A stretch of 64,000 bases of DNA from Thalia democratica (Eukaryota): assembly GCA_965202585.1 (NCBI GenBank), contig OZ241829.1:5518001-5582000 (forward strand), given 5' to 3'. Every line of letters begins with the position of its first letter. Within the stretch, counting starts at the first letter, position 1. Below are positions 54,001 to 60,000 of this stretch, in pieces. The position numbers are program-made.

Positions 54001-57000
54001 TGTTTTGTTTATTCATCTTTTTTTTTACACATATTTTCTCTCGTGGAAAAATGACCCTCTGTGCAAATTTGTAATATAACAAATATAACTAAAAAGGAAA
54101 ATTCTATATCATTGAGAAGTTTAAAACATTATAATTTTCTAAAGCTACATTTTGTAATTAGTAAAGTATTTCCTAAATTAAAAAATTGACTACTTGTGAT
54201 TTATAAGTCTTTTTAAATTGGCCTACTTTTAAATAAAGCATAAACTTTTTTGAACACGTTTTCAAAATATTCAGCTAATATCAGTTGTATTAAAAAGTTG
54301 TGGGTAAAATGTACTGCCTTCCATTAACTTCACTTGTCCTCCTTTAACTCCTACTTGTCCTCCGTTAACTCCTACTTGGTCCCTACCTCCTAAATGGTCA
54401 CTTTCTACTCTAGGGAAATACCCGTATGAGTCTCGGAAACCACTTGGTTTGAAGCCTGTTGAAAAATTTATTGTTTCAGTTGCAACACTGAAAATAGGGT
54501 TGTAGAAAACCGATACACGAAGTTTCAAAATTAAAAAAATATATACGTACCTGCAGACATACTGCTTCTATTATAACCTTGAGAGCTCGCTAATAAGGAC
54601 TGCTTGGCAAACTCATGATAGTTGTAAGAATTAATATACGGGTAATTGTACATGTTATCATGATTGTGTTGGTTACTAGTATTCCCACCAACAGAAGGTA
54701 GCACAAATATTGTGTTGAAATTGAATTTGTATGTGTACCGCTTTCTGGTTACTTTCGTCATAATGCCTTTGTCGTAGTAGTACCTGAAAACATTTTTAGT
54801 GCAAATTTTATAACGTTTCTATATGCTTTATGACATTACAAGTTGTATGTTAAAGTATTAATATCTTTATATAATATAGACATCTGTATAAATTAAATAT
54901 AACTAGTTTTTTTTTTAAGTTTTGTTCAACAGCACTAGACAATTTGAATTGGAGCTAAGTATTTATTTGGTTATATAAATAAACAATAGGTTTATACCAC
55001 CGTTTCGTACATGAGATACATTACCTCATATACTCATCAGTAAAGCTAAAGTTTATTAACAATGTTTAACAGAAATTTAGAATTAGAAAATTTTGTTAGT
55101 ATTATGACGTAGTAATAATGAAAGTTTTTGTACAGCAAGTTAAGTTTGAAAAATACACTGATCTTTGAAAAGTATTGAAAGATTGTATTAGAAAAATTAT
55201 TAAACTGTTCGTGTGCGTGGTTTAATTTTAATTAAAACACTAAATCAAAATAAAATTAAGCCGCAAACACATAAGTAAAACTTTTCTGATGAGTACATAA
55301 GGTAATGTATCTCACATACGAAACGGTGGTATGAACCTTTTTTTATATAATTTAAATATATATATATATATTTAGTTATATATAATCTTGGTTAATTAAC
55401 CATTTTTTTTAAACTGTTTACACAGTAATTAACTTCATTCAAATTTACAAAACATCTTTATAGGCTAGATCGAACAAAAATATAATAATTAAAATAAAAA
55501 GTGTTGACAAATAATAATGAAAACTAAAAAAGTTATTTTACTTTTAGGGTGTGATTTTTATTTGCAAATAAAGTGAAAATTCTATAAATTTATTTTTAAA
55601 CAACTTTGGAAATCTACATAAAAATTATAAATATGTATATAGTTTTATATATTTTTACAGCTCAAAATTTTCTATGAGCATAAAACTGTTGTAGATTTTT
55701 ATTGTTAAATTTTACTTTGATCAAAATTTGTAAATAGACAAAGTTCTTCATTAACATGTTTATCTTAGTTTTGCAAAATTTACATCAAAAATAATTTTAT
55801 AACTTTGTTATTTCCTTTTTACCTCTAATCAATTTATCATCAATCAGTTAATACAACGTTTGTTCACTAAAATATATCATACATAACAAATGTTTACCTT
55901 ATATATGATCATATAAAATTAGCTATCTATATTGTGTACGTTGTATACATTTTTGTAAAACAGCAGGAGTATCACCGATTATTATTACAATATAAAGCTT
56001 ATATGTTAACCTCAAAGCTCTGCTAAGCTTTTCATAATTCATATTGGGTTTTTTCTTCTTCTCTCCCTAACTTTTTGCAACATCCTCAGGATCATGTATC
56101 TTGAACTCACCGTCTATTCCTGTTTAAATAAAGAAACTAAATTAGGTAAAAAAAATTTAGAAAAAATATTTGGATCTGATATCTTTAATTGTATGTAAGT
56201 ACTTGTGTAGTTGATAAACTTTAGTAAAATAAAATTAAGTTAGCTGAAAAAGAAATCAAGATTAGACTATTAGAAAACTTTTTCAGCAAAATAGCCTACA
56301 TAATAAGAGGGTATTTAAAAAAAAGATCATTGTACTTTTAAAAGGAAAAAGAAATAGAAATAATGTCGCATGCACTTTTATGGAATTTGTAAATAAAAAA
56401 TAGTTGCTTTAATAATAGTACAAAAACAATCAAAAATTTAATTACCTTCCCAAGCTATAGAAGATGAGTTAGACGGATCGCTCAAAAGTTCCAGTAAAAA
56501 TTGCCACAATTGTATCTGAGCATTTCCTTTGTTGCTAAATCTTCTATCTGTTTAACAAAATTGCTTTCTTTATGTTTTTGTGCAAACCAAATAAAACAAA
56601 TCGTCAAAATGAACAAATAATTTTATCATCAAGTTCAAAGTAAGATTTTAAAAGTTAATTTGAGATTTTAAGTTTAAAAAAGATAAAGAACAATAATTAT
56701 CTTAAGTTATTTTATGCTCCTATCGCTATAGAAAAACTATTTTTTTTACATACACCGTATTTATTCAAAAATAAAAGTAGTTTAGTTTTAACGTAAAAAA
56801 TTTATTTAGACAGCAAAAAATATTTAATTAGTTATACAATTTTATGGATTTTTTAAAGTAGTCTTTTTATATCAAACATACCAGTGTGTTTGAATTTAGC
56901 GTAAGCATCAACTTCCAAATCCTTGTTCAACAAATTTGCTGAACTACATTTTGTTTGTTGAGCGGTATTATCTGTTACAAAAAACATCATAAAGTGTGTA

Positions 57001-60000
57001 TTGGCTTTATTACATTATGTAGTTTGTTTCATTTAAACATTTCCACTTATGCAGACCACTTGTTCAATAAATCCAAAAAAAAAATTAAAGTTACTGGTGT
57101 TTTAGCGATATAAAAAAACCCAACTCAATGTGAAGCAACAAGGCACTATGTTTTTTAAAATGGGTTACAACTTGTGTTAAGTAGATATGGAAGGCAATTT
57201 ATAGTTTGAACATTAGTATAAAAACAAAACCTTATTAACTCAGAACTATACTAAGTAGAGTTCAATATATATTTTAATTTGATACAATGTTAGATAGATG
57301 TGTGTATATAACAGGGGCGTGTTTTGACTGGTTTCCTGTGAACCCCCTGAAAAAAATGAAAAAAAATGAAAAAACGATTCTTAGAATATCACTAAAAACG
57401 TTCTTTATTGACTTTGGTCGGTTTTTTGATAAACTTTGAATAATGAATGTTGAATTTATAACACTTAAAGGTTATAATTTTTTATAACAAAAATTCTCGT
57501 TTTTCCCCAGCTAAAATCGATTTCAAATAAAATTTTAATTGTGACGTGATAATAGGTAAAAGTTTTTAAGTACCATATTTTTTCTGGAAAACTTTTTATT
57601 ACGATTTACTAAGTCAATCATTTGAGAAGTATATATTATATTTCTACATAAGTTTGTACATATATACTTCATAATATTACTTTGTGTTTGTTAATTAACT
57701 CAGTTTAGCTAAAAAATGTAAAGGCTTTTATTTTTAACAGTTTAAATTAGTTTATTTTACAAGTTTTAGTAAGTTTTAATTTTAAAATCTTTTTAAAAAC
57801 TTTGATTTTTATATTGATCCATTGTTATAAAATACATCTTTAATTGGTTACAAATTTAGAACTTGGCTTAGTTTGTTAATGTTAATTGTTATTAATTTTT
57901 CATTTGCTCTCGTTATAATTATTAGCTTGACTATTTTGACTGGAACTATTTAACTAGGTAATTTGTTATCATTGAGCATACTTTTCTATTATTTAGACAA
58001 GTTTGTTACTAATTTTAAGTGGTTCTATTTTCTTTAGTATCTTAAGTAAAAAAGCTTTCATTCCACATGTTAGCTCCATAATGTAAGGAATTTTTCTTAC
58101 ATTGTATATAATAACAGCACAGAATTTTTTTGTTGATGTATAAATATATTTTTTTTCAAATATTTTAGTTGTAAAGTTTAATTGTCTCATTTTAGATAGA
58201 ATTTTTCATTTTAGAGTCTAAATTTTGACTGTAATTTTTTTTTTCTTTTTTTTTCATTTGTAACTCATTATAAATTCGCAACTCAATGATCGAGAAGTCT
58301 TTTTGCGTATCCAGGTCCTTAAACCAAAACATTTTGAGCAATTTTTCGTTTTTGCTCAATAAACCACTACTGTCCATTAAGCATTTAAAAGTTTTTCTGA
58401 CACACAAACAAAAACATGCGGATTTTTTATTTTTTCGTATACGTGTTATTTAAAACACTAACTGTAGTTTCCATTGACCACTCTGCTTCTCTCTACAGAA
58501 TTTTGGTAACAACTTAGGGAATTTCCCTTGCTTGAAACCGGTGTAAATGCGCTAAATCTCCGCTCAACTAGACTTTGAAGATGTGAAATTGCAGGTGATG
58601 AATTTGGAAGAAATTGTTGCTTTGTTGTTATATCTTAAACAAGTTACATTTTGTTACTTTCTTAAACTATTAAAATGCTACTACCTGTATTTTTATGCAA
58701 ACTATCTAGTTTATATAATTGTACAGTACAAAAGAACTTTTGGCTACATAACAAATTTTTTCCTATTGGAAAAAAAAATCTCAAAAACTCTTATTTACAC
58801 ATTTGCACATTAGAAGCTAAAAGTTATTAATTTTTAATTATAACTACAACTTACTTGATTTCTCAACTCCTCTCAAAAAATTCAGATGATCAACAAAAAT
58901 TCTTCCCGACTTCTCATCTTTGGTGATATCAATAAAATCTTCTTTTGTCAATTCGCACAAACTCTCCCCGACAAAACCTTCAAACAATTGTGATGTCAAT
59001 TAAACTTCAGTTGACTATGAAAAGAGAGACTACTAAAGTCTGATAGATTTTTTTCAAACAGAGATGGCCATCTAGAAAGAGTTTTTTTTTACCAAAACCT
59101 GATTTAAACACTTTAAACGGCCAAACTTTAGAACTTAAAATTAAAAATGGGAATCTGAAATGAGAAACAGTGATACCCTAAAAAAATATTTTTTTAAATG
59201 CATCTAGCCCCTGACCACTTAAAGGGTAAAGTAAAAGAAATTTTAAGTTTAGATATTAATAGTTTCAAACACCATTGCAGAAATAATTGTTATGCAGATC
59301 AGCACTACACAAAGGAAGTAGCTAGAAATATGAGCTGTAGTAATTTCAGATATAATAAACAAAGGTCTAAACCAAACTACTTTTATAAGAACCAAGGACA
59401 TATTGATCCAAACCAAAATACTTTCCCACATGAAGGTAATAATAGAACAGTAAAACACTGTAATTTTGCAAACAAAAAAAACTTTTTCAGTTCATTCAAC
59501 CAGAAAGGCACTAAAATTCTAATATGGCACTAAAATAATATTGTAGCTAATGTAAGTGCACATTACAAAGAATAGATTAAGACTAGTTGTAATATGCTGA
59601 CAAGATGTTTTAAATAAAAAATTAAATAATATTATTACATGAAGAGAAAATATTGAGTTTATGAAAGTTCTGGTAGCTCTAACAAGTAAGTTGCAATGAA
59701 GGATTTAAAAGAAAAGACAAGCTTAAATAAAATTAGTGAGAGTTATACATGCGATAAAACTTTAGGAAATTTTTTTTTTATTTCCAACTCAATTTTTTTA
59801 ATTTTTTTTATTAAGTTTGAAAATGTTAAACATTTTTAGACAAACATTAATTATTAACTGTTTATATATTTACTAACAATAAGTTCACTGCAAAATTTAT
59901 TTCATAAAAGAAAACACATTTTTAGTTATGAGCGGTTTATGTCTTTGTGCTAGGATAATTTTTTATTTAAGCCATACTTGAGTTTACAGGTAGCTGATTA

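What the first reader, a model, noticed from the sequence alone, without database searches (positions are those of the whole stretch)
54271..58998. The dead ETS copy bears the signature of a former functional life
Seen: in the QIQLWQ exon six changes are silent and one is a replacement; PNT changes are silent or conservative (D/E, R/K, K/R, I/V, T/S); last-exon indels are +9/-9 and frame-preserving; splice sites are intact. The copy keeps ERG-like residues (DPEDV, KKP) where the intact gene has DPMDV and KRP. It nevertheless has TAG at the conserved Trp and lacks the 5' half. Inference: both copies were under purifying selection after duplication, so the right arm was once longer and was truncated and inactivated recently, while the surviving copy diverged at DNA-binding-domain positions.
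Basis: partly seen in the sequence, partly recalled or inferred. Interest (0 to 1): 0.65.

Follow-up and report, generated by a model that had tools for sequence, protein, structure and literature searches.

The report
Recently dead ERG-type ETS gene copy
A broken, half-length copy of an ERG-type transcription-factor gene lies in one arm of a DNA palindrome, and its pattern of mutations shows it was kept as a working protein-coding gene for most of its history before dying fairly recently.

Summary
The window holds a palindrome: left arm 30638-45744, right arm 46141-59002, 396-bp spacer. The left arm carries the 3' part of an intact ERG/FLI-class ETS gene. The right arm carries an intron-retaining copy that starts in the middle of the PNT exon and has TAG at the conserved ETS tryptophan.

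Against an intron-calibrated neutral model, silent changes run at 1.09 of expectation and replacements at 0.57. That fits constraint on the live copy alone.

New tests do support a functional past.
- ETS domain: 1 (at most 3) right-lineage replacements against 9.3 expected under neutrality (P 0.001-0.017), although silent changes are plentiful.
- Disabling lesions: 1 against 5.2-9.2 expected (P 0.001-0.034).
- PNT remnant: all right-lineage changes are conservative (P 0.016-0.045).

Over all seven exons, neutrality of the right copy is not rejected (P 0.16-0.25).

That the arm was once longer is inferred, not shown. An allelic or paralogous origin, or an assembly fold-back, could not be excluded. 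This is an ordinary kind of object, carefully documented.

The parts
30638..45744 (.). Left arm of the palindrome
   Evidence: Self-blastn and inverted-repeat scan.
45745..46140 (.). 396-bp single-copy spacer at the palindrome centre; it lies inside a Kelch-repeat ORF
46141..59002 (.). Right arm of the palindrome. Identity to the left arm is ~92-99% from the centre out to the position matching left ~39770, and ~87-91% beyond.
58855..59002 (-). Right copy: 3' remnant of the PNT exon. Homology begins at ~58998-59002, an in-frame TAA lies directly upstream, and the donor GT is intact.
   Evidence: (SAM_PNT E 5.5e-4).
58463..58633 (-). The acceptor is weakened to AAG.
   Evidence: tblastn with P0003, alignment, splice check.
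56882..56971 (-). Right copy: middle exon
56446..56547 (-). Right copy: ETS exon 1 ([12 protein letters not shown]); 6 silent differences, 0 replacements
56011..56119 (-). Right copy: ETS exon 2, carrying R to S and the nonsense codon
56067..56069 (-). TAG in place of the conserved ETS-domain Trp codon (TGG in the left copy)
   Evidence: W is invariant in ERG/FLI1 and in P0003, P0040 and P0047.
54551..54783 (-). Right copy: ETS exon 3 plus a fast-evolving tail
54271..54455 (-). Right copy: last exon with the conserved C-terminal STFYP motif, one 9-bp gain and one 9-bp loss relative to the left copy, and stop TGA at 54271-54273
26632..36154 (+). Left, intact ERG-type gene. Candidate first exon at 26632 (starts MSLID, like P0003). 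Shared exons: PNT 30568-30786, linker 31009-31179, middle 33441-33530, ETS1 33858-33959, ETS2 34283-34391, ETS3 35644-35876, last 35970-36154.
   Evidence: The 5' exons rest on weak tblastn hits (E 0.03-0.05) in collinear order.

Best explanation
The right-arm element is a non-processed (intron-retaining) duplicate of the neighbouring ERG/FLI-class ETS gene. It is dead now: it begins in the middle of the PNT exon, with no start codon upstream of the ETS domain, and it has a stop at the conserved ETS tryptophan. Its ETS domain, reading frame and splice sites were nevertheless preserved by selection on the protein for most of the time over which the two arms diverged by about 9.5%. It must therefore once have been part of a complete, working second ERG-type gene. 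The favoured route, which is inferred and not shown, is that the palindrome once included the whole gene in both arms. Both copies were functional and partly redundant, and the left one drifted or adapted at two ETS positions. Late in the divergence the right copy lost its outer part through a rearrangement ending in the PNT exon and acquired the clustered AGA-TGG to AGT-TAG change. The point estimate for the neutral period is the last 10-30% of the divergence; the upper bound is about 50-90%. Shown: the anatomy, the lesions and the statistical deficit of damage. Inferred: the former full length, the order of the two lesions and the redundancy.
For: ETS domain (78 codons): 12 silent differences between the copies against 5.96 expected, so mutation input was not low. 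Only 1 certain right-lineage replacement, at most 3, against 9.29 expected for a neutral lineage: P 0.00095, 0.0049 and 0.017. A likelihood-ratio test of omega_R = 1 in the domain gives P 0.0015. Four domain exons: 10 right-derived changes under the strict rule against 22.99 expected, P 0.002; the likelihood-ratio test gives P 0.048. Disabling lesions expected in a neutral lineage: stops 3.67, splice dinucleotides 1.52, frameshifts 4.00, total 9.20. Observed: 1. P is 0.0010; 0.0061 with half the frameshift rate; 0.034 without frameshifts. 6 of 6 donors and 6 of 6 acceptors are intact. The only exon indels are two 9-bp ones, whereas 37 of 46 noncoding indels are frameshifting. All 3-4 right-derived PNT changes are conservative, where 35.5% would be by chance: P 0.045-0.016. 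If the right copy had always been neutral, the left share of polarised changes should be 0.12; observed 7 of 21, P 0.009. The outgroups are equidistant from both copies: 37 vs 36 of 47 and 57 vs 55 of 70.
Against: Over all seven exons, omega_R = 1 is not rejected: P 0.25 under the strict rule, P 0.16 after correcting the middle exon, and P 0.048 only with the weaker codon-parsimony rule. The maximum-likelihood omega_R is 0.69-0.81. The right lineage does carry more polarised replacements than the left (14-17 against 7). Without any polarisation the ETS-domain deficit is not significant (P 0.11). On stops alone the lesion deficit is not significant (P 0.12), and the frameshift expectation rests on indels counted in AT-rich introns. 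20 of 41 replaced codons could not be polarised under the strict rule. There is no outgroup DNA, so silent changes are unpolarised. No trace of a longer right arm exists in the 5 kb beyond the breakpoint. The breakpoint in an exon is what a duplication that was truncated from birth would also give.
Confidence: 0.5

Rival explanations
1. The divergence predates the juxtaposition. The two copies diverged as full-length functional genes at separate places: two very divergent alleles, homeologues, or paralogous segments. A fragment of one was then placed in inverted orientation next to the other only recently, either by a real rearrangement or by an assembly fold-back between haplotigs. The TAG would then be a young lesion or a heterozygous null allele.
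For: It explains the protein-level constraint on the right copy without any lost outer arm. It fits junctions that fall anywhere: both palindrome ends lie inside coding exons (Kelch at the centre; PNT at the outer end). The Kelch reading frame is still open through the single-copy spacer. The step from ~89% to ~97% identity at ~39770 could be a change in heterozygosity or a boundary of loss of heterozygosity.
Against: A misassembly would need two independent misjoins, or else ~9.5% noncoding divergence between alleles, which is very high. The 396-bp spacer and the patchy high identity near the centre (0.924-0.994 per 500 bp) are typical of real palindromes with arm-to-arm conversion (recalled general knowledge). 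The right lineage shows a modest excess of replacements (14 against 7; one-sided P 0.095), as expected after a real loss of function.
Confidence: 0.27
2. The copy was truncated from birth and never functional. The inverted duplication simply ended inside the PNT exon. All apparent constraint comes from selection on the left copy, plus chance and an imperfect neutral yardstick.
For: It is the simplest history, with no extra event. The pairwise numbers fit it: N obs/exp 0.57 and S obs/exp 1.09 imply omega_L about 0.14 if omega_R = 1. Omega_R = 1 is not rejected over all exons (P 0.16-0.25). Outside the ETS domain the right copy's replacement rate is near neutral; for example 6 right-derived changes in the ETS3 tail.
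Against: ETS domain: 1-3 replacements against 9.29 expected (P 0.001-0.017). Lesions: 1 against 5.19-9.20 expected (P 0.001-0.034). The left share of polarised changes is 7 of 21 against 0.12 expected (P 0.009). Silent divergence in the same exons is at or above the neutral expectation, so recent gene conversion cannot have cleaned the copy.
Confidence: 0.15
3. The truncated copy was itself a working gene: an N-terminally short, PNT-less ETS protein driven from new upstream sequence in the right flank, and later killed by the TAG.
For: The constraint signal is concentrated in the ETS domain, while the linker and tail exons look nearly neutral in the right lineage.
Against: An in-frame TAA lies directly upstream of the PNT remnant. 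No in-frame ATG occurs in the remnant, the linker exon, the middle exon or ETS1, and the Met at the start of the left ETS2 exon is Ile in the right copy. No ORF with a family match lies in the flank: 0 of 10 minus-strand ORFs reached significance. The conservative PNT changes argue that the PNT domain was still in use.
Confidence: 0.05

Closest known systems
ERG/FLI1/FEV subfamily of ETS transcription factors (PNT plus ETS domain)
   Same: Per-exon Pfam hits to SAM_PNT and Ets. The best solved-structure matches are ERG, FLI1 and FEV for the ETS2 exon (E ~1e-12), and ERG PNT (1sxe, E 1.1e-14) as the best single-domain match for the PNT exon. The gene is collinear with the 621-aa ERG-type protein P0003, from the N-terminal MSLID to a C-terminal (S/T)FY(N/P) motif.
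   Different: The lineage is fast-evolving in the ETS domain. The live copy has Met where all outgroups have Asp (DPMDV) and Arg where they have Lys (KRP). The organism was not identified.
Non-processed (duplicated) pseudogenes that died recently after a functional period
   Same: Introns are kept at identical positions, with one nonsense codon and a truncation. The copy's own branch still shows protein-level constraint and a deficit of disabling lesions.
   Different: The copy is a partial one whose boundary lies inside an exon. That normally marks a duplicate that was dead on arrival, so the signature of former function needs an extra event or a different origin.
Large palindromes with gene pairs and arm-to-arm gene conversion (for example sex-chromosome palindromes; recalled, not from a call)
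   Same: Arms of 13-15 kb, a short unique spacer, and very high, patchy identity near the centre.
   Different: The outer 9 kb, including the ETS copies, has escaped homogenisation (~89% identity), and the gene pair is no longer intact. Conversion itself is inferred, not shown.
Inverted-repeat pseudogenes that act through hairpin RNA (recalled)
   Same: An inverted partial copy lies downstream of its parent gene on the same molecule.
   Different: Selection for RNA complementarity would preserve silent sites. Here silent sites diverged at or above the neutral rate (S obs/exp 1.09 overall; 12 against 5.96 in the ETS domain). The preserved signal is in the protein, not the RNA.

Membership tests
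ETS family, ERG/FLI subfamily (parent gene and copy) | ETS DNA-binding domain | tested here: met
   Pfam Ets matched exon by exon in the left copy (E 1.2e-5, 9.1e-12, 0.003). In the right copy only ETS1 and ETS3 were sent (E 1.2e-5, 0.0016), because ETS2 carries the stop. The individual exon scores are partly below the whole-domain cut-off, as expected for pieces.
ETS family, ERG/FLI subfamily (parent gene and copy) | N-terminal PNT (SAM) domain | tested here: met
   Left exon SAM_PNT E 1.9e-14. The right remnant covers only profile positions 49-80 (E 5.5e-4, below the cut-off).
ETS family, ERG/FLI subfamily (parent gene and copy) | Closer to ERG/FLI1/FEV than to other ETS classes | tested here: met
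   Ranking of solved structures; collinear tblastn with the ERG-type proteins P0003 and P0040.
ETS family, ERG/FLI subfamily (parent gene and copy) | Sequence-specific binding to GGA(A/T) DNA | not testable with these tools
   Needs a binding assay.
Non-processed (duplicated) pseudogene | DNA-level copy with introns retained at the same positions | tested here: met
   Arm alignment through all six introns at ~90.5% identity.
Non-processed (duplicated) pseudogene | Disabling lesion(s) | tested here: met
   TAG at 56067-56069, and loss of everything 5' of the middle of the PNT exon.
Non-processed (duplicated) pseudogene | Not expressed as a functional protein | not testable with these tools
   No transcript data were available.
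Once-functional, recently inactivated gene copy | Replacement rate on its own branch below neutral | tested here: inconclusive
   Met in the ETS domain (P 0.001-0.017; likelihood-ratio P 0.0015) and borderline in the four domain exons (P 0.002-0.08; likelihood-ratio P 0.048). Not met over all seven exons (P 0.16-0.25).
Once-functional, recently inactivated gene copy | Fewer stops, frameshifts and splice losses than neutral decay predicts | tested here: met
   1 observed against 9.20, 7.20 or 5.19 expected: P 0.0010, 0.0061, 0.034. Stops alone give P 0.12.
Palindrome maintained by arm-to-arm gene conversion | Inverted arms with a short spacer and mosaic near-identity | tested here: met
   Conversion as the cause is inferred.
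Allelic haplotype or assembly fold-back | Half read depth on the arms; no reads spanning the junctions | not testable with these tools
   No reads and no second assembly.

The most novel reading that the evidence does not exclude
The palindrome once held two complete, working ERG-type genes. While both were active, the left copy acquired changes at ETS-domain positions that are invariant in the other ERG-type proteins examined (Asp/Glu to Met in DPxDV, Lys to Arg before the PNMNY helix). The copy with the more ancestral residues was then discarded. That would be new function followed by loss of the ancestral paralogue, caught shortly after the loss.
Probability: 0.15. Interest if true: 0.5.

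Novelty: new member of a known kind. Interest (0 to 1): 0.3.

Why it matters
The finding mainly matters as a worked example. A partial gene copy whose boundary cuts an exon would normally be annotated as dead on arrival, yet here its own branch still carries a protein-level signature of selection. That means either a second ERG-type gene existed until recently in this lineage, or the assembly joins two diverged haplotypes. Either outcome affects how ETS gene number and this locus should be annotated. It also shows that a pairwise silent/replacement ratio between a live gene and its dead copy cannot by itself show past function. Polarised counts and a budget of disabling lesions are needed. The biology itself, a young duplicated pseudogene in a palindrome, is familiar.

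Tried and rejected
1. Homologue search with the ETS3 exon against longer proteins: 13 candidates, none scored. With the last ORF at similar lengths: no candidate. The last exon therefore has no near outgroup.
2. Structural test for a simple insertion: do the 5' (BTB/BACK) exons of the central Kelch gene resume beyond 59002? No such ORF was found, and 0 of 10 minus-strand ORFs had a significant Pfam match. The test was uninformative.
3. My first by-eye polarisation suggested equal numbers of replacements in the two copies. The rule-based table gave 17 right against 7 left under the strict rule. After I removed two middle-exon assignments that rested on a non-orthologous P0040 alignment (seen), it gave 14 against 7.
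4. The first neutral yardstick and simulations counted the then-unrecognised linker exon as intron. They were redone with little change.
5. The acceptor at left 35936-37 for the last exon was rejected because its phase does not match the ETS3 donor. The AG at 35968-69 fits, on my reading; there is no RNA evidence.
6. Gene conversion or RNA-level (hairpin) selection as the source of the apparent constraint was rejected, because silent sites are as diverged as introns or more.
7. TAG read as a sense codon was not pursued; nothing in the window suggests an altered code.
8. The atlas search with the unexplained duplicated ORF gave no usable hit.
9. The literature search for ETS / Erg / Hydra / Pointed domain listed 12 of 687 papers. 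I saw the listing only; none bears on this locus and none was read.
10. The organism was not identified.
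Full report
ANATOMY. The window is AT-rich (21-31% G+C in 2-kb windows), has no N and shows spliced, animal-type genes. It does not look human. A self-comparison shows one large palindrome: left arm 30638-45744, right arm 46141-59002, and a 396-bp spacer. Identity changes in a step. It is 0.924-0.994 per 500 bp from left 39769 to the centre, and 0.865-0.914 in the four 500-bp windows measured outward of that point (37769-39768). Farther out, the two blast segments that cover the ETS gene (30638-36348) are 90.2% and 88.0% identical.

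On the plus strand the left arm carries the 3' part of a gene whose exons match Pfam SAM_PNT and Ets. Among solved structures, ERG, FLI1 and FEV match best. The gene is collinear with P0003, a 621-aa ERG-type protein, from an N-terminal MSLID at 26632 to a C-terminal (S/T)FY(N/P) motif. The right arm carries the same exons on the minus strand, with all introns. I searched every exon separately. I left out the step of joining the exons into a spliced model, so no search or fold was made with a joined protein.

CHECK OF THE OBSERVATION.
- The ETS1 exon has 6 silent differences and no replacement in 33 full codons, plus V/D in its split first codon.
- The PNT remnant has 4 silent differences plus D/E, R/K, K/R, I/V and T/S.
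- The last exon has one 9-bp gap in each copy, and no other exon has an indel.
- 6 of 6 donors and 6 of 6 acceptors are intact in the right copy; one acceptor is weakened from CAG to AAG.
- TGG is TAG at 56067-56069, directly after AGA to AGT, so the two hits lie within three bases.
- The right copy has DPEDV and KKP where the left has DPMDV and KRP. ERG and FLI1 have DPDEV and SKP.
- Homology stops at left ~30640 / right ~59000, inside the PNT exon. Nothing resembling the 5' exons lies in the remaining 5 kb.

Two additions. tblastn with P0003 revealed a further shared coding exon (left 31009-31179, right 58463-58633). The last exon probably starts at left 35970, because the stronger-looking acceptor upstream is out of phase (my reading).

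Noncoding sites in the arms differ at 355 of 3754 positions, or 9.46%. The differences are very uneven. In an earlier noncoding set that still included the linker exon, sites with G or C in either copy differed at 26.8% and A/T-only sites at 3.0%. I therefore built a base-specific substitution matrix from the introns and flank and applied it to the exons.

Over 333 shared codons the copies differ by 28 silent and 46 replacement nucleotide changes plus the nonsense change. Two neutral lineages would give 25.7 and 80.9. So silent changes run at 1.09 and replacements at 0.57 of neutral. A Nei-Gojobori ratio on six exons gave 0.33. A value of 0.57 is what one expects if the left copy is well constrained (omega about 0.14) and the right copy is fully neutral.

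OUTGROUPS AND POLARISATION. One exhaustive profile search with the left PNT exon found 185 proteins at E up to 0.001, of which 150 were listed. I fetched 6 and used 5. P0002 is a 64-aa exon fragment, 78% identical over the aligned stretch. P0001 is 69% identical. P0003 is full-length and 56% identical. A similar-length search with the ETS3 exon found P0151, 76% identical. None carries a name. These outgroups are equidistant from the two copies (37 vs 36 of 47; 57 vs 55 of 70) and more distant than the copies are from each other (42 of 47; 67 of 77).

Under a strict rule (an outgroup residue equals one copy and none equals the other), the 41 replaced codons split into 15 right-derived, 6 left-derived and 20 undecided. 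In nucleotides this is 17, 7 and 22. Two middle-exon assignments rested on a local alignment to a non-orthologous part of P0040 (visible). Moving them to undecided gives 14, 7 and 25. Likelihood-ratio tests over all exons do not reject omega = 1 on the right branch: P 0.25 and 0.16, or 0.048 with a weaker codon-parsimony rule. The estimates are omega_R 0.69-0.81 and omega_L 0.33-0.45. The split does reject the specific born-dead prediction, which expects a left share of 0.12: observed 7 of 21, P 0.009.

THE TESTS THAT DO DISCRIMINATE.
(a) ETS domain proper: 78 codons, where the outgroups are nearly invariant. The copies differ at 12 silent sites against 5.96 expected, so mutation input was not low and there has been no recent gene conversion. 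Only four codons are replaced, plus the stop. Of these, R to S is right-derived, K to R is left-derived, and Met for Asp/Glu is left-derived by parsimony. M/I is undecided. A neutral lineage should have 9.29 replacements. The right copy has 1, and at most 3: P 0.00095, 0.0049 and 0.017. The likelihood-ratio test gives P 0.0015. Without any polarisation P is 0.11.
(b) Disabling lesions. A neutral lineage should have collected 3.67 stops, 1.52 splice-dinucleotide hits and 4.00 frameshifts; the last figure comes from 37 frameshifting events among 46 noncoding indels, corrected for homopolymer runs. That totals 9.20, and the right copy has 1. P is 0.0010. It is 0.0061 with half the frameshift rate, 0.034 with none, and 0.12 for stops alone.
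(c) PNT remnant. All 3-4 right-derived changes are conservative, where 35.5% of neutral replacements would be: P 0.045-0.016.
(d) Four domain exons. There are 10 right-derived changes against 22.99 expected (P 0.002). If every undecided change is charged to the right copy the count is 15-16 (P 0.05-0.08).

Outside the ETS domain the right copy's rate is close to neutral. These parts are weakly constrained in the left copy too.

READING. The dead copy's DNA-binding domain, frame and splice sites were held by selection on a protein for most of the arm divergence. The lesion count puts the neutral period at about 1/9 of that time. The 95% upper bound on the Poisson mean is 4.74, which is about half of the time, or about nine-tenths if frameshifts are ignored. 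The ETS-domain count gives 10-30%. A protein needs a start and a promoter, and the present copy has neither. An in-frame TAA precedes the PNT remnant, and there is no in-frame ATG before the ETS domain. So the copy was once part of a complete gene.

It is the most economical in-place history, and I favour it at about 0.5, but nothing in the window shows it. The main rival, at about 0.27, is that the copies diverged as separate full-length genes or alleles and were brought together recently, by a real rearrangement or by an assembly fold-back. It accounts for junctions that fall in exons at both ends of the palindrome and for the still-open Kelch frame in the spacer. It needs very high allelic divergence or two misjoins. 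A copy that was truncated from birth and never functional keeps about 0.15, because the all-exon tests are not significant. A working PNT-less short form is unlikely, at about 0.05.

THE SURVIVOR. In the ETS domain the live copy is the more derived of the two. It has Met where 3 of 3 ERG-type outgroups and ERG/FLI1 have Asp, and Arg where they have Lys. Whether these changes matter for binding was not tested.

LIMITS. There is no outgroup DNA, so silent changes are unpolarised and branch dN/dS is approximated by counts against an intron yardstick. About half of the replacements are undecided. The last exon has no near outgroup. The organism is unidentified. So the missing 5' exons elsewhere in the genome, the TAG in other strains, expression, and the haplotype question all stayed unchecked. 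One literature search gave a listing with nothing relevant, so I make no claim about what is in print.

VERDICT. This is a new member of a familiar class, a young non-processed pseudogene in a palindrome. Interest is modest.

Noticed in passing
45305-46282 (minus strand) and 46141-46562 (plus strand): A Kelch-repeat ORF (Pfam Kelch_1, E 2e-31) runs from the left arm through the whole single-copy spacer. The right arm holds a 97-98% identical copy of its C-terminal ~140 codons, so the inner palindrome boundary also cuts a coding sequence. No BTB/BACK exons were found. By my count the first Met is near 46066, giving a 253-aa Kelch-only ORF. The open frame in the spacer hints at either a working gene or a young palindrome centre.
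   Followed up: partly
30638-30645 / 58998-59002 and 45744 / 46141: Both ends of the palindrome fall inside coding exons (PNT and Kelch), although exons are a small part of the window. I have no explanation for this.
   Followed up: no
left ~39770 (right ~52120): Arm identity jumps sharply from ~0.87-0.91 to ~0.92-0.99 and stays patchy inward (0.924 at 42269, 0.994 at 44269). This fits mosaic arm-to-arm gene conversion near the centre. The mean inner divergence of about 3% (my average of the rows) is similar to the estimated time since the right ETS copy died, which may be coincidence.
   Followed up: partly
39706-40761 (plus strand) and 51152-52123 (minus strand): An unexplained ORF is duplicated in the inner stratum: 351 and 323 codons from stop to stop, with the first Met at residue 59 of the left copy. 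17 of 969 nucleotides differ, giving 11 amino-acid differences (5 of them before the first Met) and 3 silent codons. It has no Pfam family and no atlas hit.
   Followed up: partly
It matches P0003 residues 335-386 (52% identity) and is phase 1/1 in both copies.
   Followed up: yes
31517-32259 and 36349-37768: Two left-arm-only segments (743 bp and 1420 bp) have no counterpart in the right arm. The second shares a 70-bp match with 1192-1261. No clear terminal repeats or target-site duplications were seen, and which arm gained or lost them is unknown.
   Followed up: partly
59529-59716 / 62542-62730 and 61254-61938 / 62752-63456: Diverged local direct repeats (82% and 70% identity) lie in the flank just outside the right arm. 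They were not identified as a known mobile element.
   Followed up: no
6874-7308 and 10270-10832 (minus strand): Long low-complexity ORFs: a Ser/Arg/Asn-rich one of 144 codons and overlapping repetitive ones of 140 and 176 codons. The two sent to Pfam (6877-7308 and 10305-10832) had no match. They are probably tandem-repeat DNA rather than genes.
   Followed up: no
noncoding parts of 30793-36348 against the right arm: Substitution is strongly base-dependent. Sites with G or C in either copy differ at 26.8% and A/T-only sites at 3.0%. Any dN/dS read against raw intron identity in this genome would therefore be misleading.
   Followed up: yes
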